IMG/VR virus record: IMGVR_UViG_3300037634_001606
Location: 1 to 34,338 of that record
Length of the DNA: 34,338 bases
From: a virus
Taxonomy: Duplodnaviria; Caudoviricetes
Reading direction: 5' to 3' (one strand)
Part shown: one piece after another, positions 177 through 14,437 of the stretch
Layout: each line of letters starts with the position of its first letter
Numbering within the stretch: position 1 is the first letter of the stretch
Program-made: the position numbers and the translations under genes
Notes under the pieces: model-generated
Seen by the model: the letters and a program-made list of their open reading frames with translations, nothing else
Databases searched by the model: none
Told to the model about the DNA's origin: nothing

Positions 177-1523
177 ATGAAAACAACAGAACTAGAGAAC
201 ATTGAAGTATCTGAATCGCGTCAGCGCAAGACGTTTAACAAGAGGCGAATGGAGGAGTTAAGCAAGAGCATAGTGTCTAATGGGTTGTTTCATCCTATCG
301 TAGTCGAGCCTCTCGATGATGGCGGAACGGGGACTGTCACCCTAATCGCCGGAGAGAGGCGGCTGCGTGTGGTGAAGGAACTTATTGAGAAGAAGACACC
401 CTTTCGTCATGACGGACAGGAGGTTCCGCTTGGTACAATACCGACTGTCTTTGTAGATGAACTCGACGAGGTTACAAGACTTGAGATTGAGATTGAGGAG
501 AACGTAACTCGCGAGGACTTCACTGTTCAGGAGAAAGCTGCGGCCTATGCACAGCTACATGAGCTACGGATAAAACAAAAGGGAGAGTATGACAAGGGTG
601 AGAGTCAACGAACAGGTGACACTGTAGGCCAGACTCTCCTTGCTACAGCGCAAGAGATACACGGGGACGACGCCGGGGACAGTAAGGTGAAAGACCTGTC
701 TGACCTGCTTGTCATTGCCGAGCATCTTGATGACCCTGAGGTCGCCGCGGCCAAGACAAAGTCCGAGGCACTCAAAGCGATTAAGGACACCAAACGCGCG
801 AAGGTACGGAAAGAACTCGCAGAACAATTCGACCTAACGGAAGCACCGCATGTGTTATTCCATGCTGATAGCTATAACCTTGAAGCTGTCTCCGGTGCCC
901 CGTTCGATGTCATCCTTGCTGACCCACCGTACGGTCGTGAGATGCACAAAGAAAAGAACGCTGGGACGAGGAAACATAACTATGATGATTCAGAAGAAGC
1001 CTTCCAACAAATGCTTGCAGAGCTACCCGGACTTTGTGATAGACTTACGAAACCACAAGCCCACGGATATATCTTTTGTGATATTCGCAGATGGAGCGAA
1101 CTCTTCGTGGCTTTCGAACTATCCAGTTTTCAATGCTGGCCCCGACCTCTTATCTGGGATAAAGGTAATACTGGTTCCTTCGGAGACATGGAGTACGGTT
1201 TTCGCCAAACATACGAAGCAATCTTATTTATTAATAAGGGCAGACGAACAATGGCTAAGCCCCATACTGAAGTCTTCCGATGCCAAAATCCTACAAGCGG
1301 TAACCACGCAGCTGGAAAGCCGCCAGAACTCCTCATCGAACTTCTGAGCTGTAGTGTTCTGCCAACCAATACAATCCTTGACCCGTACTGCGGTGAGGGT
1401 AATATCTTTCCTGCGGCCACTGAACTCAAGTGTACAGCAACGGGAATAGAAAAAGAAGAATCAACCTATCACATGGCTGTTGCCACACTGGAGGCTCTAA
1501 CCAATAATGAAAGCAAAGAATGA
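177..1523 (+). CDS. ParB/Srx-like N-terminal domain fused to an N6-adenine/N4-cytosine DNA methyltransferase
   Basis: The ParB part has GLFHPIVV, LIAGERRLR and EIEENVTREDF. The C-terminal part has catalytic DPPY before the SAM-binding LDPYCGEG (beta-class order), plus the HAAGKP motif. Confidence 0.88.
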   Translation: MKTTELENIEVSESRQRKTFNKRRMEELSKSIVSNGLFHPIVVEPLDDGGTGTVTLIAGERRLRVVKELIEKKTPFRHDGQEVPLGTIPTVFVDELDEVTRLEIEIEENVTREDFTVQEKAAAYAQLHELRIKQKGEYDKGESQRTGDTVGQTLLATAQEIHGDDAGDSKVKDLSDLLVIAEHLDDPEVAAAKTKSEALKAIKDTKRAKVRKELAEQFDLTEAPHVLFHADSYNLEAVSGAPFDVILADPPYGREMHKEKNAGTRKHNYDDSEEAFQQMLAELPGLCDRLTKPQAHGYIFCDIRRWSELFVAFELSSFQCWPRPLIWDKGNTGSFGDMEYGFRQTYEAILFINKGRRTMAKPHTEVFRCQNPTSGNHAAGKPPELLIELLSCSVLPTNTILDPYCGEGNIFPAATELKCTATGIEKEESTYHMAVATLEALTNNESKE

Positions 1524-3459: not shown

Positions 3460-3549
3460 ATGAGTGATTTATTACCGTGTCCTTTTTGTGGTGGTGAGGC
3501 TGAACTGTACAAAGGCGCATCACAAGAAGCGGGAGAGAAGAATGCCTGA
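3460..3549 (+). pseudogene. Truncated Lar-family (restriction alleviation) zinc-finger peptide, 29 aa
   Basis: MSDLLPCPFCGGEAELYKGASQEAGEKNA* follows a strong SD (GAGGAGGTGA). LxPCPFCGGEA is the typical Lar N-terminus, but the second CxxC is missing. Confidence 0.55.
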
Positions 3550-5251
3550 AGTCCACGGATACGGCAACCCCACCGCTGACATAATGATAGTTGGCGAAGC
3601 CCCCGGCAAGACTGAGGAGGAGCAGGGTCGTCCGTTCGTCGGCTCATCCGGATACGAGATGAACAACATGTTAGCAGAGGCAGGGATATCTCGCGACGAA
3701 TGTTTCGTAACAAACGTCTCTCGCCTCCGCCCACCATATAATAAGATTGAAAACTTCTTCATGACTAAGACAGAAGCGAAGAAGCGTGGCGGAATAGAGT
3801 GGCACGGTAAGTACCCAGACAAGCCTATACTCCAGGGTCTCCCTGCGTTGCAAAAAGAAATCGAGGCTGTCGACCCGAATGTAATCATCGCCTACGGTGC
3901 CACGTCTTTATGGGCACTGACAGGTTTAACTGGTAAGACAAACAAACCAGCCCCGACTGGAATCATGACCTGGAGAGGGAGTCAGTTAGAAACCCTCCCC
4001 GAGTTTGGTTCTCGCAAGGTAGTCCCATGCGTCCATCCTGCCGCCATTCTTCGTCAGTGGGCAAACCGACATATAGGTATCTATGACCTTCGTCGCGTAG
4101 CCGAAGCGAAGAACACTAAGACCTGGGACTATCCTAAGTATGACTTCCACATTAGACCTAGCTTCACAGATGTGATGTTGTATTTTGATTCGATACAAGA
4201 AGCATTTGCAGAAGGCTACCATGTAAAGCTAGCTTGCGATATTGAAACCCGGCTCAGACATATTGCTTGTCTTGGTCTTGCTAACTCTGCTCGTAGTGCT
4301 CTATGCATTCCCTTTATGTCGACAGATAATCCGTCGGGGTACTGGTCTACTACCGAAGAGTCTGAGATAGTCTGGTCGTTAAAGGATATCTTAACCCACC
4401 CACAAACTATTCTCATCGGACAGAACTTCGACTATGACATTCAGTACATGTCTAGAGAGTGGGGATTCGCCCCGCTTCCCGCGCGGGACACAATGATATA
4501 CCAACACACTTTATTCCCCGGCCTTCAAAAAGGACTCGACTATCTGTCCTCAGTATACTGTGAGTTCCACCAGTACTGGAAAGACGAGGGGAAGGAATGG
4601 GACCCAAAGCTCCATGATGAAGAACGACTATGGACATATAACTGCAAAGACTGCGTAGTTACTTATGAAGCCGACGAGGTGTTGCAAAAACTTATCGAGA
4701 TGTATAAACTCGAAGAGCAGGTAGACTTTCAGATGTCTCTCATTCGCCCCGTCCTGCGGGCTGAGCTTAGGGGAACCCTCATGGATAACGAGGCTAAGCG
4801 CCAGGCCAAGTCAGACATGATGGAATATATGTTCGATGCTACTGCGTTCTTTGAATACATCCTCCCTGAGAATATCTATAGACGAAAGAAGACTCCGTGG
4901 TATGATAGCCCCACCCAAACCGCTGAGGTTCTTTACGACGTTCTTATGCTCCCTGAGCAATTCGCTCAACGTGGTAAGGGTAAGAAAACTCGCACAGCTA
5001 ATGACGATGCGCTTGAAGCATTAGGTATAATAGAACCTTTGATAAAGCCAGTCACAGACAGACTACGAGACTATCGCTCAGCTAAGAGTCTTATGTCAAA
5101 CTTCCTCAACGCCCCTGTGGAATGGGACAACCGGATGCGTAGCTCTATTAACATATGCGGAACTGAGACGTTTCGTAAATCCTCCAGCCGAGATGTATTT
5201 GGCTATGGAGGCAACCAGCAAAACTTAACCAGTGGGAGTAAAGAATCATGA
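3542..5251 (+). CDS. DNA polymerase A, N-terminal subunit: family-4-like uracil-DNA glycosylase + 3'-5' exonuclease + thumb/start of palm
   Basis: UDG motifs IMIVGEAPG, GRPFVGSSG and HPAAILR. Exo I/II/III motifs DIET, GQNFDYD and YNCKD. It ends TETFRKSSS...NQQNL, equivalent to TxTGRLSS..NLQN. Likely start is ATG 3542 after GGGAG; the ORF track starts at 3464. Confidence 0.9.
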   Translation: MPEVHGYGNPTADIMIVGEAPGKTEEEQGRPFVGSSGYEMNNMLAEAGISRDECFVTNVSRLRPPYNKIENFFMTKTEAKKRGGIEWHGKYPDKPILQGLPALQKEIEAVDPNVIIAYGATSLWALTGLTGKTNKPAPTGIMTWRGSQLETLPEFGSRKVVPCVHPAAILRQWANRHIGIYDLRRVAEAKNTKTWDYPKYDFHIRPSFTDVMLYFDSIQEAFAEGYHVKLACDIETRLRHIACLGLANSARSALCIPFMSTDNPSGYWSTTEESEIVWSLKDILTHPQTILIGQNFDYDIQYMSREWGFAPLPARDTMIYQHTLFPGLQKGLDYLSSVYCEFHQYWKDEGKEWDPKLHDEERLWTYNCKDCVVTYEADEVLQKLIEMYKLEEQVDFQMSLIRPVLRAELRGTLMDNEAKRQAKSDMMEYMFDATAFFEYILPENIYRRKKTPWYDSPTQTAEVLYDVLMLPEQFAQRGKGKKTRTANDDALEALGIIEPLIKPVTDRLRDYRSAKSLMSNFLNAPVEWDNRMRSSINICGTETFRKSSSRDVFGYGGNQQNLTSGSKES

Positions 5252-5520
5252 GCAACAAAGACAATGACCCTGACACATACCGAGATGTTACACCGCCTGA
5301 AGGATGGGTAGCGCAAATAATGGCTGACATGGACGACGCCAATAGCGAATCGGGAGTCCGTAGACGTACCGAAGCCATGCTCGAGGAGATTGATAAACGC
5401 TTTTCAAGAATAGAACATCTGCAAGAATTACATATGCAGGCTTTCGACCAGGTTGAAAAGTCCCTAACCGTAGTCAAAGAAACTCTGGAGCTTATCTGTG
5501 AAAGTTCCAAATCTCCGTAA
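5248..5520 (+). CDS. Hypothetical 90-aa acidic, helical protein inserted between the two polymerase halves
   Basis: ATGA overlap with the upstream stop, SD GGGAG, and a 23-nt overlap with the downstream gene. No HNH, LAGLIDADG, GIY-YIG or intein motif. Confidence 0.7.
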   Translation: MSNKDNDPDTYRDVTPPEGWVAQIMADMDDANSESGVRRRTEAMLEEIDKRFSRIEHLQELHMQAFDQVEKSLTVVKETLELICESSKSP

Positions 5521-6241
5521 AGTTCTTATCCCCGACCCAGGGTATCTCATATGCGAGTCTGACTTAGCTCAGGCTGACGCACAAGTTGTTGCGTGGGAAG
5601 CAGATGACCAAGCTCTTATGGACTTCTTCATAGCAGCTCGGACAGACCTTTCCCTTGACTTACATACGACAAATGCAGAAGCCCTGGGTCTTACTGGCCC
5701 GGCTGGTCGGCAACTAGCCAAGGCCGGAGTCCACGCAACAAACTACGGAGCAAGTGTCCCAAGACTAGCAAAGGTCCTTGGCATTACAAAAACCATGGCC
5801 CAACTATTCGTCAACAAATGGTTCGCGGCTCATCCAGCTATACCTCGCTGGCACGAGAGAACTCAAGATTCTCTTAACGCTTCCCGATCAGTAACTAATA
5901 AGTTTGGCTACACTCGTCGCTACTTTGAGAGACCAGACAGTTTGCTTCCTGAGGCTTTGGCTTGGGTTCCCCAGTCAACGGTAGCTCTAGTAATCGACAA
6001 GGGCTGGGCAAACATTGACCGAGAACTCTACTCTCATGTAGAAGTTCTTTTACAAGTTCATGACTCATTGGTGTATCAGATAAAGAAAAGAAACTATACT
6101 CAATCTCTGCTCGAACATCTTCACCAATGTTTACACATTGAAATACCGTACGATAATCTACTAACTATCCCTGTCGGCATCTCCATCAGCGAGAAGTCTT
6201 GGGGTCATTGCGAGGAGACAACATGGAAAATAGCAGCGTAG
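5498..6241 (+). CDS. DNA polymerase A, C-terminal catalytic subunit (motifs A, B, C)
   Basis: Motif A in LRKVLIPDPGY..ESDLAQADAQ, motif B RQLAKAGVHATNYG, PQST, and motif C LQVHDSLV. GTG start lies 7 nt after GGAG. Confidence 0.92.
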   Translation: MKVPNLRKVLIPDPGYLICESDLAQADAQVVAWEADDQALMDFFIAARTDLSLDLHTTNAEALGLTGPAGRQLAKAGVHATNYGASVPRLAKVLGITKTMAQLFVNKWFAAHPAIPRWHERTQDSLNASRSVTNKFGYTRRYFERPDSLLPEALAWVPQSTVALVIDKGWANIDRELYSHVEVLLQVHDSLVYQIKKRNYTQSLLEHLHQCLHIEIPYDNLLTIPVGISISEKSWGHCEETTWKIAA

Positions 6242-6462: not shown

Positions 6463-6833
6463 CCAATCCCTATAGCGGCACAGGAGCTAAAGAGCACGAG
6501 AGATACGAGCAGATAGTTGAGGTATGCGCGACTGCGCTTAAGGCAAACTGCCCAATCTTCAGCCCGATAAACCACTGGCATCCAATCAGCCGTACCTATG
6601 GGGTTGAAGGAAGCTTTGGTATGTTTCGTATCCAGTGTGAAGCGCTCCTTCCACATGCCAGTTGTCTGGTAGTCATTACCCTACCTGGCTGGAAACATAG
6701 TGTAGGCGTCAGTCACGAATGGTGTATGGCAGAGGAACTAAGTATCCCCTCCTTCCATGTTACTTTGGCTGAAGCTCTATCACTTTCTTATTGGGAGAAA
6801 CTCAGAGATCGCTATTCAACGGAACTACCCTGA
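6447..6833 (+). CDS. DUF1937-like protein (nucleoside 2-deoxyribosyltransferase/nucleotide N-glycosidase-like fold)
   Basis: VYLANPYS, FSPINHWH and LPGWKHSVGVSHE pattern. SD GAGGAGGAG precedes the GTG. Confidence 0.75.
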   Translation: MFVYLANPYSGTGAKEHERYEQIVEVCATALKANCPIFSPINHWHPISRTYGVEGSFGMFRIQCEALLPHASCLVVITLPGWKHSVGVSHEWCMAEELSIPSFHVTLAEALSLSYWEKLRDRYSTELP

Positions 6834-8157
6834 TTGGATACGGGCCTATTTAGAATATACTCGTGTACTGGAAGCCCCGGATACCTGTCACTTCTGGTCA
6901 GCGGTTGCGGCTATTGCCGGAGCCCTGCGTGGTAAGTGCTGGTTCGATATGGGCTTCTTCAAATGGAAGCCAAACTTCTTTATTATTCTTGTCGGCCCTC
7001 CCGGAATAATTAACAAGAGCACCACGATAGAGCAAGGCTATGCCCTTCTCCGTGAAGTGCCGGGGATTCACTTCGGCCCTGACTCAGTAACTTGGCAAGG
7101 ACTCACTGATGCCTTTGCAGAAGCTAGTGAAGAATACACCCTCGCAGATAACTTAGGTGTCTTATCGTCCAGCTCTATTACCATCGCCGCTAGTGAGTTG
7201 GGAACCTTCCTTGACCCACGGAACAGGGAGATGATAGACGTCTTGGTAGACCTCTGGGATGGACGCCCCGTTCCGTGGAAGCGTAGAACCAAAGGCGAAG
7301 GTCAATCCGAAATAGCCAATCCTTGGTTTAACTTCGTCGGCTGTACTACACCTGGGTGGATGCACGAGAACTTCCCTGAGTACGCAATTCAGGGTGGGTT
7401 CACATCTCGGACGGTGTTCGTGTATGGAGAGCACAAGAGATTTTTCAACGCCTATCCTCATCGGTCAATAGTTCCTAAAGAAAGAATGGAAATGAAAAGC
7501 AAGCTGGTCGAAGACTTGAAGCTCATAGCTAAAATCTCTGGCCCCTTCGACCTTACTGAAGATGCCTATGCTTGGGGAGAGAAGTGGTATGGTGAACACT
7601 GGCAACGCCCCCCGAATGAAACAGATAGTTTAGCTGGTTACAAGGCCCGCAAACAGACTCACATACACAAGCTTGCCATGGTACTATCCGCCGCCAAGAG
7701 TGATGATAGAGTCATTCAACTCGAAGACATAAAGACCGCCAACACCTTCATAAGCACCCTTGAGTCCACCATGCCTAGCGTGTTCTCAGCTGTGACAGAG
7801 AACCGAGACACGAAGTTTGCGGCTATGGTAGTCAAGCAAGTCAAGCATCATCCGAAGATAACCAAGACAGAAGTATGGCGCAAGCTGTTCAATGTAATGT
7901 CTATCAATGAATTCAACCTCGCACTCCAGGCCGCGGTAATTGCTGGCTATGTAAAGGAAACCAACAACGGTACAGACCTTGTACTCAGCTACGTTGGGCC
8001 TCGGGAAAAAGCTCCTCAATCTCAAGAAAGTCCCGACGAAACCCTTTCTCATTCGGCAGACCACGCTCCCGTAGAAGTGCCCGACGACGACGCTGCTTCA
8101 AGCTCTCCTTTAGTATCCTCGGAGTTATCCGAAGGCCAGGAGGTGCGTTCTGATTAA
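6757..8157 (+). CDS. DUF3987-like AAA+ ATPase, putative replicative helicase
   Basis: Variant Walker A ILVGPPGIINKST, Walker B-like TIAASELG, DLWDG, GCTTP and GGFTSR (Arg-finger-like). It follows the polymerase. The start codon is uncertain. Confidence 0.72.
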   Translation: MLLWLKLYHFLIGRNSEIAIQRNYPDWIRAYLEYTRVLEAPDTCHFWSAVAAIAGALRGKCWFDMGFFKWKPNFFIILVGPPGIINKSTTIEQGYALLREVPGIHFGPDSVTWQGLTDAFAEASEEYTLADNLGVLSSSSITIAASELGTFLDPRNREMIDVLVDLWDGRPVPWKRRTKGEGQSEIANPWFNFVGCTTPGWMHENFPEYAIQGGFTSRTVFVYGEHKRFFNAYPHRSIVPKERMEMKSKLVEDLKLIAKISGPFDLTEDAYAWGEKWYGEHWQRPPNETDSLAGYKARKQTHIHKLAMVLSAAKSDDRVIQLEDIKTANTFISTLESTMPSVFSAVTENRDTKFAAMVVKQVKHHPKITKTEVWRKLFNVMSINEFNLALQAAVIAGYVKETNNGTDLVLSYVGPREKAPQSQESPDETLSHSADHAPVEVPDDDAASSSPLVSSELSEGQEVRSD

Positions 8158-11100
8158 ATTGTTTAACTGCTTTCCGTACGTCTGCTATGCCTTCCCGGTG
8201 GCCCTCACCTTGGGCATATGCGTACTTCTCGAGGAGGAGACTTCTTCTCATCAGGACATACCTACGGAAGTCCTCTTTAATTCCGCGCAGCTCGTACGTA
8301 GTAGAAAGTCTACTTGGAGCGAATCCCAATGATTGAGCAATCAACTCTGCTTGTGCTTGACTGTCATGCGGATCAAACTCAACTACTTGTCCGCCCCCAC
8401 GGAATGTCTCTTCGCCTCTCGTGTGAAGACGCGCTGCTTTTGAAAGAGACTTCAACGCTATGGGCATACCCCTCTCCCATTTCTTCCATACATCAGGATC
8501 TGAGGACTCTGCTACTTTCCATAAGTTGTAAGGAATCCCTATCACTGGGCCAAGAATATCAACCACTGTCCGTCCGAATTTTGCCTCCGGATTCCTTTCA
8601 TTCGATAGTATCTCACCTACACCGGGAAGGAACCTACCCATGGTTAACGATCCCGTTATGTCTACATTGGGGACTGGCACTCCGAGAGCTTCAACTGCGT
8701 GTAACGGACCGAGACCCCAGTATCTTCCAGCACCGTGCATTATCAGATCTGGGCGGTCAGTAATTCCAGTCATCAGCTCACGGATATCATTCCGCAATTC
8801 CGTGTGCGGGTCTTTCATTCCCGTTAAGGTCTTAATCTTCGTCGTGCTCTTGTTCAAGATATCTAGTATATTCTCAGCAAACGGGATACCCTGTAGTCCA
8901 GCCAACAACCCAAGCATAAGCATGAACCGAATAGCTGTACCGCCGCCAGCCCCGCCCAAGGCAAGGAAGCTAGCGCCCTGCATCCACATCCAGAAGAGGA
9001 AGATAACGCTCTTCTTTCCTCGCATAAACTGAGGCCGGTTCCACTTAGCATACTCAAACATGGCAGTCTGAACAGCATCCTTTCCAACCTGATATATCTC
9101 TTCCGGGTCAGTGATTCCACTCTTCTCTGCCAACCGTGTAGCAGAGATAAAACTCACAAGCCTTGTATACTTCTCAGCATTCCTGAACATCCACGCACCG
9201 TAGTAGCTAGTATTACTCATCAGCCGCCCGGTCGCAGTACTCGGCACCATCCTTTCCAACACATTACTATCACTGAACCCAGCAAGCTCAGTTGCAATAC
9301 TCTCATCTAAGAACCCATCTTTTCTTGCTCTGTCAATCATGTCATTCAGAGCATTACTTATCTTAGGACTCTTACCTCCAAACACCCGAGCCGCGTCGAT
9401 AGTTGCATTAGCAATTTCCTTAGTCGTCTTGACATCTCCGAATTTACTCGACAAGTACGGATACAGCACCATCGGCACCTGCGTCATGTTCACAGCTGCT
9501 GACTTCGCATTGAATCCCAGGTACCACAGAAAGGCCATGGCCCTCAGCTTACTCCAGTCATCCTCTGGGTTCATGATATAATTATAATGGTCTCGGAAGT
9601 AATCACCCAACATAGCCGCACTGGTGGAATCTCCTATCTCCTGATCCACCCGTGTACGTAGCTGGTCAAACCCCTTCAGCGCTGCGTCCATGTCAATGAA
9701 GTGCTCAACCCGAGCAATGTGATTTGCCGCACTCAACATGTAGGAACTATATACCCTTAGCGCATCTTCGCTGAACCCGGCCACACCTTTACGATTCAAA
9801 AGGTGCTTAAGGAAAGCCCGTCCAGGAGACAGCCTTATTGTTATCTCCTTCATCCGTTCCTGTTGCTGAGGTGTTAATCCTAGCTCATTCTTAAAGCTAT
9901 CGATTAACGTTGGCGGCAGTCCGAGGAATTGGAATTCTTTATCCGTCAACTTACTCATGGTAATCTTCGCAGAGCCAAGCTGACTCAACTTATGCAGCTC
10001 TTCATTCCGAAGTAACTGGGCCTTCCGTGTCTCATGTGTCTCGAACAACACAGTGTCCCCAGCCTCATACGAACGCCCAGCGAATTTCATTGCCTTCTGT
10101 GCTTTCACAGTAACGGTGTACTGCCCAAACCGTTGGCGTGGAAAATAGTTTCTGTTCTTCAGCTCACTGAAATCCTTCTCGATCTTATTCAGCCTTGGAA
10201 TCAGCAGGAACTTCTCACTCCCTTTGTCTGCCAGAGCCGCTTGTAACATCTGCTTCCGGGTATCCTTATCCGTAGTCCTCCAGGCTTGTAGAAACTCCAC
10301 CGCCGCCGCCTGCGACCCGAGGCTTTCCAGCGCTGCATTATACTCCAGCCCCGGTTGCAACCTGTCCAAAATCGTACGGAAGCTCTCATCAATCTCGGTA
10401 AACAGCGCCTGCCCTGCCTCATCCAGTTTATTCTTCTGCATGATCCTAGCCACTTCCTCTGGAGTCAACCTCCGAGCAAGCTCGTCACTCGTAGTACTGA
10501 CCTCAAAGATAGTCTTACTCAGAGCCTCACTCCTTGTATTACTCGTGCTCCACCGTCCAGCAATGTCAGACGCCAGTTCCATTATCTCTGTCTTAGTGTT
10601 CCACCACCTCTGCACCACCTCGAGGTAATTCTTACTAGGACTTACATTAAACACCCGAGCCATTTGCAATGGAGTCAACACACCACCGGCACCTTTCACT
10701 CTCCAGACCTGGGTAAACTTCTTCAAATTTTCCTTAATAAGTTTCAAGTCCATATCCAAGTTTGCTTCAAGATTCGCGGCATGAGCCTCAGTCTTACTTG
10801 CAAAGACTTTAACAGGCGTCTCAGCTTGCGCAACATCACCAGGTATTTCCCACCATGAGAAGCCAAACTTATCTTTCACAATCTTCCCATCAAATTCCTT
10901 ATAAATCTTCGGTAGTTCCTTCTCATACATCTTGAAGATTCCTTCCCATCTGTTTAGATTAAGCGCAACATCCGGTGGTACATTTGGCTTGAAGCTTATA
11001 AGTGCATTTTTGTGATATTTACCTGCAACGATAGCCGCTGTCCTGCCTGTAGGAAACCTAATAGGCTTTCCAGGAAACATAATAGCATTCCTGCGTATAT

Positions 11101-14100
11101 ACTCACGTACCGTTTGATTCAACAGCGTAGTTCTCTGTGGAAAATCAACTGTATCAAACTGCCTATTCTGAGCTACATCACTTTGAACTTCCACCACATG
11201 AGTAACATCTTCCTTATCAACAAACCCACGAGTATGTGATAAATAATTATTCGAGTCTTTAAAATGTTCTGATGCCCTAGACAGTTCTCTCCCAACCTCA
11301 TCGATAGGTCGTTGAGTTTGCGTTGGCCCTTCCCAAACTAATGCCGAAGCTTGAACTCCATCCAATGTCTTGTCTAACCCTTGTTGTCCAACAAGCAATT
11401 GATACTCCGTTGCTATCGCTTCACTATTAGCTTGCTTAACAGCGTCCATTAACAGGCCAGCCTTTGCTCCTGCATCACCAAGTCCTTGGTATATCTCATC
11501 ATTAAAGAATTCCTCAAAGCTGTCAGTACCAGAGTTTAATCTAGCCCTTAAGTCTTTTAGTATTTTATCTGGCTGCCTTATCTTAGTTGCATCTAAACGA
11601 AAGTGTGCGTCCCTGTACATCCACGCACCCAAACGAAAGTGTGCGTCTGCCAAAGCCTTTCTATCTTTCTGGACTAACGCTAACAACTCCGCATCGAAGT
11701 TATCCAATATAGCCTGGTCTTCTCTACCAATATTCTGGAAGCCCACATTTGATAACTCAGGAGCATGCCAACTCTTTGCATTCAACGGGAGTATTCTTTG
11801 CATTACTTCGTGAATCAAAGTCTCCCTCTGGAACCTCCTCCCTATATGATGCAGTGCAAGTACTTCCCTGAATATCTCTACCTCACCTTTCTTAGCCTTC
11901 GCAGCTTTCAGCGCCTGCACCACATGCCCGGCGTTCAACCACTGTTTCTTCGGGAGTGCATCCAACACCCTTGTAGTATACTTAGGAATCTCTTTCAAGT
12001 CCACCATTCTGCGCAAATAGTTCTCTGTACGGAATTTCCCGCCCAAGTTAGTCGTATTAATTGGGGCGGATAAATAACGTCGGATATCACTCAGCATTAC
12101 CCTCAGTTCTGTGTCAGATAACTTAAGGTTTGGTAGGAACTCACGAAGGAATCTCCTCAGCGCAGCAACAACCCGAGTAAGGACTGGGGCACGAGGATTA
12201 CTTTCTGCCAGATGTGCAATCTTTTCCTCAGCAAGTTCCCTTTTATGTACAGGATTTGATAAGTCTAGTCCATACAAGTTAGCGAGTCCAGAAAGGTCAA
12301 AGGACTGGGCCACTTGGTCTAATAGTGCATTAAGTTCCTTGGGAAGAAGCACAGCCCTCAACCCATGGTGAGCCAGGGTTTCATGAAAATATGCCTGTAC
12401 AACAGCTTCAGGGGACTTGAGTCTATCTGCTATCAAGAACATTGTTTGTGAGTCAACATAGTACACAGCGCGAGTGCCCCGTGCTTGAGCCGCGCGCTTA
12501 ACATCTGGATGAACTATATCCTCGTGGCTCTTGACAATTGAAATCTGCGGGCCAAGTGGAAGTGCGATAGCCTCCACAGTTTCTTTCACCTGTTCCACCG
12601 AAATACCTGGTACTTGTGCAGTTGGAGCTACCTTTCGACTTTCGAATATCCCTTTCCTCAGCTCCACATTTTCTTTCTTAGTAGCAGTCCTACGCTCTAC
12701 TATCTCTCCCTCTGCCTTTGATCGCAAGGCATCCAAGATTTCGAATTCTTTGTCTGTGAGTCCCTCTTCGATTTCTTTTTCCAGCAGTTTATCAAGACGC
12801 TTCTGCTCTCCCTTAGTAAGTCTTTCGACACTTTCAGGACGAAGGGGACTGGTTTCAATCTCTTCTGGTGTAACTTGCAAGGACTCGTCATGTGTGACTA
12901 CCTCCTCAGTTTCTGTATTCACGTCTGGAAACGAAATAGCATCCTGTTCTCTACGAGAAGAAACAGTCTGGTGCTGAGGAATAGTTATTGGTCTAACCTT
13001 ACCGCCAATATCTAACGTTCCGACCTGCACTCTCGGTTCTCTTGTAGTAACCTTGAGTCCTTTACCCTCATCGATTCTATCTTCTACAATCGGTACCAAG
13101 GACTTATCCCGGGCAATAGGACTATGTGGTATTGGAAGCCCAAATGTCTGTTCCTGTACAGAAAAAGCATCAGCGGAGACTAATCCACTCTCATTCACAG
13201 CAGTAAAAACCGGAATAGGTGTACGCTCCGTTTGCTCAACCTGGTCTCGACTATCGGGGATTTGCTGAAGGGGAGCGCCTAGCTGCTGGGTGAGGAAAGC
13301 AATCTCTTTATTAATAACCACATCACCTCTTTCACCAAGGTCAATGGAGCTATAATCAGGCACCGGTGCCACTGTTTCTTCCTGCAACAACCCTTCATTT
13401 GGAAGAGTTGTGCTAGGCTTATTAACTTCCTCTGTTACCTGAGCATCGAAGTCTTCGAGTATTTCCTTCTCTGTCCGGTGACTTCTAGGACGGGAGAATG
13501 CGCCAACTGCACCACCAAACATGAGACCAGCAGCAGCCCCAACAGCCGCCGCGTCTCGAAGTCTCTTTCGACCTTCAGCCCCCAAGAAATCGTAGTTCTC
13601 ATCCACAATCTCCCGCGCGGCACTGGCTATTACCTCCTGACCAAACTCAGTAGCGGCTTCTAGTCCTGATATAACTGTACCACCAGCAGCGATACGCTTG
13701 AGTATATTCGGACTCCCCATGATCTTATCAATCAATTTGCTCTGTAGCTGTGGCCCTACTCCGAGCATACGCCCAAGCTGAAAGATAGGAAGTATCTCCA
13801 AACTACCTGCTAAAGCACCGCCAGCAACAGCAATTCCCGGCCTGATTTCACCTATAGATTCGTGCTGTTCCTGAGCAATACCACCAGTTTCCAGTGTACT
13901 TGCACCGCCGAATACACCAGCTGTTTGGCCCCTAGTAATGGTCTTTTTCAAGGCTTCTTCTGTCAGTTCTTTCTTAAACTTATCAGCAGCAAGTTTCTTA
14001 CCTACACCAGCTATAATTCCACCAACACCACCAGTTGCCACAATACTCGCAATGATAGGTAATTGTCTTCCTGCAACACCCTGCATGAAGTCTACAAAAG

Positions 14101-14437
14101 ACCCAACATCTTCAATCTTGTCGATGTTATCTACCAGTCCAGCAGTCAGCCGATGAGCCTCGTCAAACCGCTTTCCAGCAGCCTCGAAGCTTTCCGTCGC
14201 CGCGTTCTCAAACCCTAAGAGTTCTTGCCCTGTACCCACAGCTGCGCGAGTAAGACCTATGGTCTCCTCTACACCAGCTTTGAGGTTAGGAATGAAGTCC
14301 CCTGGTTCGTCAGTTTCCCGAGGCTGACCAGCAACGGCTTGGTCAAACCCTTCGAGGGCTGACTCAAAACCGTGCTTTTGTTTCGCCTTTTCTGTATCTT
14401 CGTCGAAAGCCGCTAGGGCATCATTGAAGTCTACCAT
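7985..14437 (-). CDS. Large internal virion/ejection protein, polyvalent type (2150 aa) with zincin-like and PLxRFG-like domains
   Basis: Last and largest gene of a podovirus late operon. It has Gly/Ala-rich hydrophobic N-terminal helices, FHETLAHHG..LAEE and NYFPRQRFGQY. Confidence 0.75.
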   Translation of the reverse strand: MVDFNDALAAFDEDTEKAKQKHGFESALEGFDQAVAGQPRETDEPGDFIPNLKAGVEETIGLTRAAVGTGQELLGFENAATESFEAAGKRFDEAHRLTAGLVDNIDKIEDVGSFVDFMQGVAGRQLPIIASIVATGGVGGIIAGVGKKLAADKFKKELTEEALKKTITRGQTAGVFGGASTLETGGIAQEQHESIGEIRPGIAVAGGALAGSLEILPIFQLGRMLGVGPQLQSKLIDKIMGSPNILKRIAAGGTVISGLEAATEFGQEVIASAAREIVDENYDFLGAEGRKRLRDAAAVGAAAGLMFGGAVGAFSRPRSHRTEKEILEDFDAQVTEEVNKPSTTLPNEGLLQEETVAPVPDYSSIDLGERGDVVINKEIAFLTQQLGAPLQQIPDSRDQVEQTERTPIPVFTAVNESGLVSADAFSVQEQTFGLPIPHSPIARDKSLVPIVEDRIDEGKGLKVTTREPRVQVGTLDIGGKVRPITIPQHQTVSSRREQDAISFPDVNTETEEVVTHDESLQVTPEEIETSPLRPESVERLTKGEQKRLDKLLEKEIEEGLTDKEFEILDALRSKAEGEIVERRTATKKENVELRKGIFESRKVAPTAQVPGISVEQVKETVEAIALPLGPQISIVKSHEDIVHPDVKRAAQARGTRAVYYVDSQTMFLIADRLKSPEAVVQAYFHETLAHHGLRAVLLPKELNALLDQVAQSFDLSGLANLYGLDLSNPVHKRELAEEKIAHLAESNPRAPVLTRVVAALRRFLREFLPNLKLSDTELRVMLSDIRRYLSAPINTTNLGGKFRTENYLRRMVDLKEIPKYTTRVLDALPKKQWLNAGHVVQALKAAKAKKGEVEIFREVLALHHIGRRFQRETLIHEVMQRILPLNAKSWHAPELSNVGFQNIGREDQAILDNFDAELLALVQKDRKALADAHFRLGAWMYRDAHFRLDATKIRQPDKILKDLRARLNSGTDSFEEFFNDEIYQGLGDAGAKAGLLMDAVKQANSEAIATEYQLLVGQQGLDKTLDGVQASALVWEGPTQTQRPIDEVGRELSRASEHFKDSNNYLSHTRGFVDKEDVTHVVEVQSDVAQNRQFDTVDFPQRTTLLNQTVREYIRRNAIMFPGKPIRFPTGRTAAIVAGKYHKNALISFKPNVPPDVALNLNRWEGIFKMYEKELPKIYKEFDGKIVKDKFGFSWWEIPGDVAQAETPVKVFASKTEAHAANLEANLDMDLKLIKENLKKFTQVWRVKGAGGVLTPLQMARVFNVSPSKNYLEVVQRWWNTKTEIMELASDIAGRWSTSNTRSEALSKTIFEVSTTSDELARRLTPEEVARIMQKNKLDEAGQALFTEIDESFRTILDRLQPGLEYNAALESLGSQAAAVEFLQAWRTTDKDTRKQMLQAALADKGSEKFLLIPRLNKIEKDFSELKNRNYFPRQRFGQYTVTVKAQKAMKFAGRSYEAGDTVLFETHETRKAQLLRNEELHKLSQLGSAKITMSKLTDKEFQFLGLPPTLIDSFKNELGLTPQQQERMKEITIRLSPGRAFLKHLLNRKGVAGFSEDALRVYSSYMLSAANHIARVEHFIDMDAALKGFDQLRTRVDQEIGDSTSAAMLGDYFRDHYNYIMNPEDDWSKLRAMAFLWYLGFNAKSAAVNMTQVPMVLYPYLSSKFGDVKTTKEIANATIDAARVFGGKSPKISNALNDMIDRARKDGFLDESIATELAGFSDSNVLERMVPSTATGRLMSNTSYYGAWMFRNAEKYTRLVSFISATRLAEKSGITDPEEIYQVGKDAVQTAMFEYAKWNRPQFMRGKKSVIFLFWMWMQGASFLALGGAGGGTAIRFMLMLGLLAGLQGIPFAENILDILNKSTTKIKTLTGMKDPHTELRNDIRELMTGITDRPDLIMHGAGRYWGLGPLHAVEALGVPVPNVDITGSLTMGRFLPGVGEILSNERNPEAKFGRTVVDILGPVIGIPYNLWKVAESSDPDVWKKWERGMPIALKSLSKAARLHTRGEETFRGGGQVVEFDPHDSQAQAELIAQSLGFAPSRLSTTYELRGIKEDFRRYVLMRRSLLLEKYAYAQGEGHREGIADVRKAVKQFNQNAPPGLRITPRILKESLKQRRRRALLRERGLPNEKGFRRDFLEIEELFPEAQRS
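11595..11647. repeat. 17-bp exact direct repeat (AAACGAAAGTGTGCGTC) with 36-bp period
   Basis: Copies at 11595-11611 and 11631-11647 encode DAHFRL twice in the large protein. Confidence 0.9.

What the first reader, a model, noticed from the sequence alone, without database searches (positions are those of the whole stretch)
3542..6241. Family-A DNA polymerase split inside its palm into two genes by an unrelated ORF
Seen: the UDG-exo-thumb gene stops right after TETFRKSSS..NQQNL. Motifs A, B and C are on a separate 247-aa gene in the same frame 246 nt later. Several in-frame stops and a 90-aa ORF lie in between. Both halves have intact motifs, and the second half has its own GGAG-7 nt-GTG. The insert shows no homing-endonuclease, intein or obvious group I intron signature. 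Known: in PolA these motifs are contiguous (NLQNIP..IR..F..ADYSQ). A precedent for fragments assembling into one enzyme is phage Aeh1 nrdA, split by mobE. Inference: a heterodimeric or heterotrimeric PolA whose active site is built from two chains, with the 90-aa protein possibly an accessory subunit.
Basis: partly seen in the sequence, partly recalled or inferred. Interest (0 to 1): 0.82.

Follow-up and report, generated by a model that had tools for sequence, protein, structure and literature searches.

The report
Recurrently split phage family-A DNA polymerase
This marine phage encodes its DNA-copying enzyme as two separate genes cut in a loop of the catalytic palm, as do about half of the relatives sampled, with anything from nothing to eight unrelated genes in the gap, so the two proteins likely clip together into one enzyme and the small gene between them is likely just a passenger.

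Summary
A 569-aa UDG-exonuclease-thumb gene (3542-5251) and a 247-aa palm/fingers gene (5498-6241) flank a coupled 90-aa orphan ORF. Contigs from two other studies bridge the gap unchanged.

The split is a family trait: 69 of 136 non-redundant relatives, including the cultured Vibrio phage VS-ABTNL-3, are cut in the same variable loop. Gaps run from -4 to 2,289 nt with no frame bias. 12 have gaps of 2 nt or less and 18 have no ORF. The rest carry dUTPase, Lon-domain, HNH, helicase or orphan genes.

Catalytic residues are invariant, and pN/pS matches unsplit genes. Split genes do not form one clade (AU p=1.5e-33). This argues against an intron, intein, artefact or decay, and against the 90-aa protein being a subunit.

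Best reading: a non-covalent two-chain PolA, predicted but not shown.

Precedent: OM43 phages MEP401/402 (PolA cut about 15 residues away, untested), exo/pol-split T7-like cyanophage PolA, and active split gp43. This scan also noted pre-motif-A PolA splits on other DNA.

New here: repeated fission or re-fusion, abutting halves, loop codons doubling as a ribosome-binding site, two further seams, and an invariant His at the 762 position.

The parts
3531..3535 (+). Shine-Dalgarno-like GGGAG upstream of the N-gene ATG
   Evidence: sequence
3542..5251 (+). PolA N gene, 569 aa: family-4-type UDG domain, 3'-5' exonuclease (D233, E235, D299, Y366, D370), thumb and first palm strands
   Evidence: Pfam/PHROG; alignment invariants; PDB profile hits to family-4 UDG and Pol I; AF2 model mean pLDDT 91.7
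3554..4066 (+). UDG domain with GEAPG and HPAAILR motifs
   Evidence: Pfam PF03167 E=5e-27; motif counts
5162..5227 (+). Palm motif TETFR...NQQNL (R545, N558, Q560 conserved; K546 and Q559 found in no other of 102 aligned rows)
5228..5251 (+). Truncated variable loop: codons for S-G-S contain GGAG (5235-5238), then the ATGA stop-start overlap
5248..5520 (+). 90-aa orphan ORF in the gap, predicted mostly helical; likely a passenger gene
   Evidence: codon usage; no credible homologue
5487..5490 (+). GGAG 7 nt upstream of the C-gene GTG
5498..6241 (+). PolA C gene, 247 aa: motif A (D22, 5561-5563), motif B (R71, K75, H79 at the 762 position, Y83), motif C (H188-D189, 6059-6064)
   Evidence: Pfam PF00476 E=2e-21; alignment; alignment to Bacillus Pol I
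6757..8157 (+). DUF3987 / PHROG 14296 'primase' gene, conserved downstream neighbour of the polymerase
   Evidence: found downstream in 53 of 53 split and 51 of 52 contiguous loci with at least 1.5 kb of flank

Best explanation
The phage's family-A polymerase is encoded by two genes cut in a variable palm loop between the NxQN motif and motif A, and the two separately translated chains likely reassemble non-covalently into one working enzyme, while the 90-aa ORF is likely a passenger in what has become an ordinary intergenic slot. Shown: the gene structure, its recurrence in relatives, intact catalytic residues and purifying selection in split relatives. Predicted: the loop is the least confident stretch of the single-chain model, and the halves dock over about 140 contacts, with the new N-terminus of the C chain packing on the N chain. 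Inferred: translational coupling (ATGA or overlap plus SD) keeps the chains roughly matched; the loop's K/S-G-D/E codons often already read GGAG, so a nearby stop-start is enough to make a viable two-gene form; genes are gained and lost in the gap afterwards. Activity has not been tested.
For: (1) One search examined 178 loci: 83 split, 79 contiguous, 14 without the N-half end in the fetched flank, 2 with no match. After merging at >=95% identity, 69 of 136 are split. Every N chain ends 9-15 residues from the start of the NxQN motif; the loop in contiguous relatives is 2-27 aa long (64 of 66 measured). (2) Gaps are -4 to 2,289 nt, mod 3 = 21/22/25 (68 starts called). 12 of 69 are <=2 nt and 18 of 69 hold no ORF >=35 aa. 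(3) Inserts are unrelated ordinary genes: 32 of 106 have a Pfam hit, including dUTPase (6), Lon_C or its homologue (10), HNH (3, plus 1 by PHROG), methyltransferase (2) and helicase (1). (4) Motif A Asp, motif B Lys/His, motif C His-Asp and the exo Asp/Glu/Asp/Tyr/Asp are present in 53 of 53 split rows; the window departs at 1 of 55 and 1 of 58 conserved columns, the median value. pN/pS medians: split 0.28 (N) and 0.28 (C), 11 pairs; contiguous 0.30 and 0.25, 12 pairs. (5) The only PolA matches in the 34-kb record (76% complete) are these two genes. (6) Complex score 0.90, best of 3 controls 0.02. The mark was reached by 116 of 157 solved complexes and 2 of 215 mismatched pairs; the runs agree in >=95% of contacts; partner pLDDT >=91. 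Halves of a split gene tend to pass by likeness to solved single-chain PolA, so this shows fit, not binding. (7) In the AF2 model of contiguous L093, the loop block 521-530 has the lowest pLDDT (72). (8) Coupling: the first insert ORF starts within -30..+5 nt of the N stop in 41 of 50 loci, and the C start lies within -35..+5 nt of the last ORF stop in 44 of 50. An SD-like word sits at the loop Gly codon in 45 of 62 split versus 19 of 55 contiguous loci (Fisher p=4e-5; rows are not independent). (9) L079 and L087/L088 are 87-90% identical in DNA and share the same cut, with and without an HNH gene.
Against: No expression or activity data. The window has no close non-identical relative, so selection on this copy rests on motif conservation alone. 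It carries K546 and Q559 where almost all relatives have hydrophobic residues; this is unexplained. Split N halves have somewhat fewer 90%-conserved columns (50 versus 65; deviation test p=0.065), and N-versus-C identity correlates less among split rows (Spearman 0.45 versus 0.59), although nearest neighbours agree more often (31 of 53 versus 16 of 49). The loci were found with a profile built from stand-alone C chains, so 'half' overstates or at best does not measure the true frequency. The record is incomplete, so a second polymerase elsewhere is not excluded.
Confidence: 0.86

Rival explanations
1. The halves are rejoined at the RNA or ribosome level (an unrecognised intron, or translational bypassing as in T4 gene 60), giving one chain.
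For: In the window the halves are in frame. The codon before the N stop (TCA) and the codon before the C start (TCT) both encode Ser. The OM43-phage authors suggested an intron for their similar split (PMC10580990, passages). 4 inserts are HNH genes.
Against: No Rfam match, no excess structure (z=+0.71) and no inverted repeats. 12 of 69 relatives have gaps of 2 nt or less with stop-start overlaps, leaving no room for an intron, and gap length shows no frame preference. C chains have their own starts and SD-like sites, many beginning MVA.
Confidence: 0.05
2. The 90-aa protein is a third, accessory subunit that bridges or stimulates the two halves.
For: It is coupled to both halves, has phage-like codon usage, and is predicted helical (Atlas model pTM 0.40). 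An accessory subunit is shown for the split family-B PhiKZ polymerase (PMC13648687, abstract).
Against: No homologue among 5.8 billion proteins. Among 1.84 billion representatives there is only itself and one weak repeat-like hit (E=2.5e-4). It is found in no fetched locus except identical copies and shows no likeness to the MEP401 insert. 18 of 69 split relatives have no ORF in the gap.
Confidence: 0.04
3. The split gene is decaying or only partly functional, and host polymerases replicate the phage.
For: Two odd substitutions in the window's palm motif, and slightly lower N-half column conservation among split rows.
Against: Catalytic residues invariant in 53 of 53 split rows; pN/pS at most 0.44 in all 11 split pairs and similar to contiguous pairs. 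Splits persist across deep branches and in a cultured phage.
Confidence: 0.04
4. Assembly or sequencing artefact.
For: The window is a metagenomic contig.
Against: Contigs from two other studies bridge the gap with no differences. The same cut is annotated in the cultured phage genome MF497422.
Confidence: 0.01

Closest known systems
Split PolA of OM43 phages MEP401/MEP402 (PMC10580990; passages read, records fetched)
   Same: Family-A polymerase in two ORFs, cut between NLQN and motif A, with one small unknown ORF (77 aa) between; reported in most group I relatives.
   Different: A different lineage (Zobellviridae-like, no UDG). The cut lies about 15 residues further on, just before the motif A strand (aligned by eye). 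The insert is unrelated. The authors left an intron open and tested nothing.
Vibrio phage vB_VspS_VS-ABTNL-3 (MF497422, cultured)
   Same: Same family and same cut; GenBank annotates two polymerase genes; falls in the window's all-split clade of 8 rows (97*).
   Different: An unrelated 184-aa insert. No paper naming it was found in the library.
Bicistronic gp43A/gp43B of Aeromonas/Acinetobacter T4-like phages (via PMC2988022 and PMC3061061, passages; the Petrov papers were not read)
   Same: Two separately made polymerase chains, intercistronic gaps of 2 bp to 3 kb with varied content, occasional endonuclease invasion. Co-purification and activity are reported there.
   Different: Family B, cut in the finger tip. 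Here: family A, cut in a palm loop.
Exo/pol-split PolA of T7-like cyanophages S-SBP1 and S-TIP37 (PMC10201439, PMC12695635; passages)
   Same: Natural fission of a phage PolA, with stop and restart and a predicted complex.
   Different: Cut at the domain border between exonuclease and polymerase, not inside the polymerase domain.
Aeh1 nrdA-a/mobE/nrdA-b (PMC3045599, abstract)
   Same: An essential enzyme assembled from two gene products without splicing.
   Different: Created by a homing-endonuclease insertion and dependent on insertion-derived tails. Here no tails are added (N chains end 9-15 aa from NxQN) and HNH genes are in only 4 of 69 gaps.
Single-chain UDG-PolA (SPO1, N4-like cluster 17; PMC10201439, passages)
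   Same: Domain order UDG-exo-pol.
   Different: Those are single chains. This family has His at position B3 (762) in 102 of 102 rows, whereas the passages read list Phe, Tyr or Leu.

Membership tests
Family A DNA polymerase | Motifs A, B and C with catalytic aspartates; Klenow fold | tested here: met
   a contiguous relative's model matches Pol I at E=2e-31, TM 0.80 by target
Family A DNA polymerase | Template-directed DNA synthesis | not testable with these tools
   needs an assay
UDG-PolA | [quoted passage not shown] | tested here: met
   GEAPG and HP motifs intact in the window
N4-like PolA (cluster 17) | Phe at B3 and degenerate UDG catalytic residues | tested here: not met
   His at B3 and UDG motifs intact; definition from PMC10201439 passages
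Group I/II intron-interrupted polymerase gene | Ribozyme core between the exons | tested here: not met
   abutting relatives
Group I/II intron-interrupted polymerase gene | Spliced mRNA | not testable with these tools
   needs RNA reads or RT-PCR
Split-intein fractured gene | Intein N and C fragments at the new ends (HN followed by C/S/T) | tested here: not met
   0 of 69 C frames carry HN[CST] upstream; N tails are only 9-15 aa; no intein Pfam hit
Homing-endonuclease-fractured gene (nrdA/mobE type) | Endonuclease gene in the gap | tested here: not met
   the window's insert has no nuclease match; HNH in 4 of 69 relatives
Naturally split (bicistronic) polymerases, gp43A/B type | Two separately initiated ORFs, complementary and complete, under purifying selection, with variable intercistronic DNA | tested here: met
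Naturally split (bicistronic) polymerases, gp43A/B type | Chains co-purify and are active | not testable with these tools
   only a prediction by likeness
Programmed translational bypass (T4 gene 60 type) | Matched take-off and landing codons, a stem-loop at the stop, and a short fixed gap (criteria recalled) | tested here: inconclusive
   synonymous Ser codons flank the gap in the window, but there is no excess structure and no frame conservation across relatives

The most novel reading that the evidence does not exclude
This UDG-PolA family is a naturally modular polymerase that toggles between one, two and three chains. The palm loop's own K-G-D/E codons double as a ribosome-binding site, so fission is one small mutation away and has happened, and probably been reversed by re-fusion, many times. 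Two more seams (inside the exonuclease active site, and at the UDG/exo border) are used in relatives, and the whole family carries a histidine at the dideoxy-discriminating 762 position.
Probability: 0.4. Interest if true: 0.65.

Novelty: new variant of a known kind. Interest (0 to 1): 0.5.

Why it matters
It extends the working two-chain design from family B to the polymerase domain of family A. The comparative data (abutting halves, selection, recurrence) also weigh against the intron guess left open for the OM43 phages. The family gives a natural series of fused, abutting and insert-separated forms, with a cultured member, so gene fission and re-fusion of an essential enzyme can be tested directly. 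Practically, it marks tolerated cut points for split-polymerase engineering. It also warns that stand-alone ~250-aa PolA proteins in virome surveys are often real genes, not fragments.

Tried and rejected
- RNA runs: no RNA holder was listed, which says nothing on expression.
- Rfam, RNA folding, inverted repeats, tRNA scan and promoter/terminator scan found nothing in or at the gap. A 15-nt imperfect direct repeat (5152/5548) covers Ile-Cys codons in both halves and was treated as chance.
- Homologue searches for the 90-aa ORF were blank or below the tools' bars: Pfam SesA under cut-off; Atlas feature scores <=0.86 and structure rows under the naming bar.
- A single origin of the split was rejected (AU p=1.5e-33). 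Rooting with 6 distant outgroups left the base unresolved, so fission and re-fusion could not be polarised.
- The complex was run once, with residues 225-569 of the N chain (no alignment) and the C chain. The 90-aa protein was not tested in a complex.
- Dropped rows: 14 loci lacking the N-half end and L007/L008 from the counts; L006 from the ingroup trees; 34 of 136 rows lacking enough N or C coverage from the 102-row analyses; 19 rows without a located motif from the SD count.
Full report
OBSERVATION. The window is a 34.3-kb virus record, 76% complete, with portal, major capsid and terminase genes on the minus strand and a replication module on the plus strand. The N gene (3542-5251, 569 aa) has UDG, 3'-5' exonuclease and the first third of the DNA_pol_A profile. 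The C gene (5498-6241, 247 aa) has the rest. PHROG 17 coverage ends at profile position 989 and restarts at 996. The 246 nt between are in frame but hold 5 stops. A 90-aa ORF fills the gap, overlapping the N stop (ATGA) and the C start (23 nt). All three genes have SD-like words. The ORF's codon usage is like the phage's own (0 of 2000 shuffles as high). Of 4 runs laid, two from different studies give single contigs across the gap with no difference or joint; the other two cover it only in part. The runs flagged as possible sources were not used. The holders are labelled marine metagenome.

RELATIVES. tblastn against GenBank phages gave the cultured Vibrio phage VS-ABTNL-3, cut at the same place around an unrelated 184-aa ORF. 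It also gave single-chain relatives (MW202489, Mel-JY34) and Caulobacter phage Kuura, cut elsewhere. A protein search with the C chain found 2,083 relatives of 135-433 aa; many of the best 120 are stand-alone ~250-aa proteins on contigs up to 47 kb. A profile of 53 of them fetched 80 viral, 80 metagenome and 9 genome loci. Of 178 loci examined, 83 were split, 79 contiguous, 14 lacked the N-half end and 2 had no match. After merging near-copies, 69 of 136 are split. Because the profile came from stand-alone C chains and only the best 80 per collection were kept, this is not a frequency estimate.

THE CUT AND THE GAP. All 69 N chains end 9-15 residues from the start of NxQN, and the C chains start just before (L)PN. 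In contiguous relatives that loop is 2-27 aa long. In the AF2 model of contiguous L093 (mean pLDDT 92.9) it is coil and the lowest-confidence block (72). Gaps range from -4 to 2,289 nt with no frame preference. 12 of 69 are 2 nt or less and 18 hold no ORF; the rest hold 1-8 ORFs. Of 106 insert ORFs, 32 have a Pfam hit: dUTPase, Lon protease domain, HNH, methyltransferase, helicase, exonuclease and others. PHROGs adds an HNH, a pyrophosphatase and a Mom-like gene among 13 proteins scanned. L079 and L087/L088 are 87-90% identical in DNA and differ by an HNH gene sitting exactly at the stop-start. The gap therefore behaves as an ordinary intergenic slot. The window's ORF has no credible homologue.

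SELECTION. In 102 rows with enough coverage (53 split, 49 contiguous), the catalytic residues of the exonuclease and of motifs A, B and C are invariant in the split rows. Departures at conserved columns do not differ (p=0.065 for N, 0.57 for C), and the window sits at the median. pN/pS in independent close pairs is 0.28/0.28 (11 split pairs) versus 0.30/0.25 (12 contiguous pairs); synonymous sites are near saturation in many pairs. Against this reading: the window alone has K546 and Q559 at normally hydrophobic positions, and N-versus-C identities correlate less among split rows.

HISTORY. A tree of exo+thumb+palm needs 13 state changes, at least 8 of them forced by starred branches (shuffled mean 34). 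With 6 outgroups it needs 11, at least 6 forced. One split clade is rejected (p-AU 1.5e-33). L082 (gap -1) nests among 19 contiguous rows, which points to an independent fission without insert. The window falls in an all-split clade of 8 rows with VS-ABTNL-3 (97*; unresolved). The base is unresolved, and C chains starting MVA occur in several clades, so old splits with re-fusion, or swapping of halves, may contribute. These are quick trees with SH-aLRT support only. An SD-like word at the loop Gly codon occurs in 45 of 62 split and 19 of 55 contiguous loci. I infer that the K-G-D/E codons pre-adapt the site to fission; the rows are related, so the p-value is overstated. An HNH-first origin followed by loss cannot be excluded for some lineages.

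MECHANISM. Best reading (0.86): two coupled genes give two chains that assemble non-covalently. The predicted complex of N(225-569) with C scored 0.90 against a best control of 0.02. That mark was reached by 116 of 157 solved complexes and 2 of 215 mismatched pairs; the runs agree in at least 95% of contacts, and partner pLDDT is at least 91. The interface includes C residues 1-13 against N residues 410-422. Halves of a split gene tend to pass by likeness to solved PolA, so this shows that they fit, not that they bind. Both catalytic aspartates and the fingers are on the C chain. The N chain brings the thumb, proofreading, the UDG and the TxR/NxQN strands, which by recalled Pol I knowledge contact the primer-template. 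Rivals: RNA-level or ribosomal rejoining 0.05, accessory 90-aa subunit 0.04, decay 0.04, artefact 0.01.

FURTHER SEAMS. Eight non-redundant loci, including Kuura, are cut inside the exonuclease before the YNxxD motif with the palm intact. Two (L032, L095) are in three pieces, with an extra cut at the UDG/exo border. The exonuclease seam maps to the second-lowest pLDDT block of the L093 model (321-330, 73). His occupies position B3 (E. coli 762; numbering recalled) in 102 of 102 rows.

LITERATURE. [quoted passage not shown] The last two report split gp43 with 2 bp-3 kb gaps and activity; the Petrov papers themselves were not read. Read as abstract only: PMC13648687 and PMC3045599. No supplements were opened; those of PMC10580990 and PMC10201439 may list further split PolAs. 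Nine searches (listings only) showed no paper on this UDG-PolA family's split or on His762, but the library lacks most subscription papers. Earlier notes of this scan describe PolA cut before motif A in other genomes; none matched this protein by sequence or lay in this genome.

VERDICT. A real feature and a new variant of a known kind; interest 0.5. The recurrence, the abutting forms and the cultured test case are the added value.

Noticed in passing
window 5732-5734 (H79 of the C gene) and all aligned relatives: Histidine at motif B position B3 (E. coli 762) in 102 of 102 rows; the passages read list only Phe, Tyr or Leu, and a paper search for His762 was blank.
   Followed up: partly
L006, L038, L066, L085, L114, L135, L146, L172: A second recurrent cut inside the 3'-5' exonuclease, before the YNxxD motif, with the palm intact; gaps from overlap to about 600 nt. 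MW202554 (L182) is cut a little later, at the exo/thumb border.
   Followed up: partly
L032, L095: Three-piece polymerases: UDG | exo-thumb | palm-fingers.
   Followed up: partly
L040, L060, L102, L115, L119, L122, L125, L138, L151, L174 (gap ORFs): One clade stably keeps a stand-alone Lon protease domain gene between the halves; another clade keeps a dUTPase there (L025, L044, L059, L067, L080, L131).
   Followed up: no
window 5177-5179 and 5216-5218: K546 and Q559 replace normally hydrophobic residues in the palm motif; unique among 102 rows, possibly a compensating pair.
   Followed up: no
window 3460-3549: 29-codon ORF resembling the start of a Lar-like restriction-alleviation protein (PHROG 599, E=1e-4), overlapping the polymerase start; probably a remnant.
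   Followed up: no
window 177-1523: ParB-N domain fused to an N6/N4 DNA methyltransferase, upstream of a ribonucleotide reductase with B12-dependent (class II) domain hits.
   Followed up: no
window 7985-14437 (-): 2,150-aa protein with a DarB-like antirestriction match in its C-terminal third.
   Followed up: no
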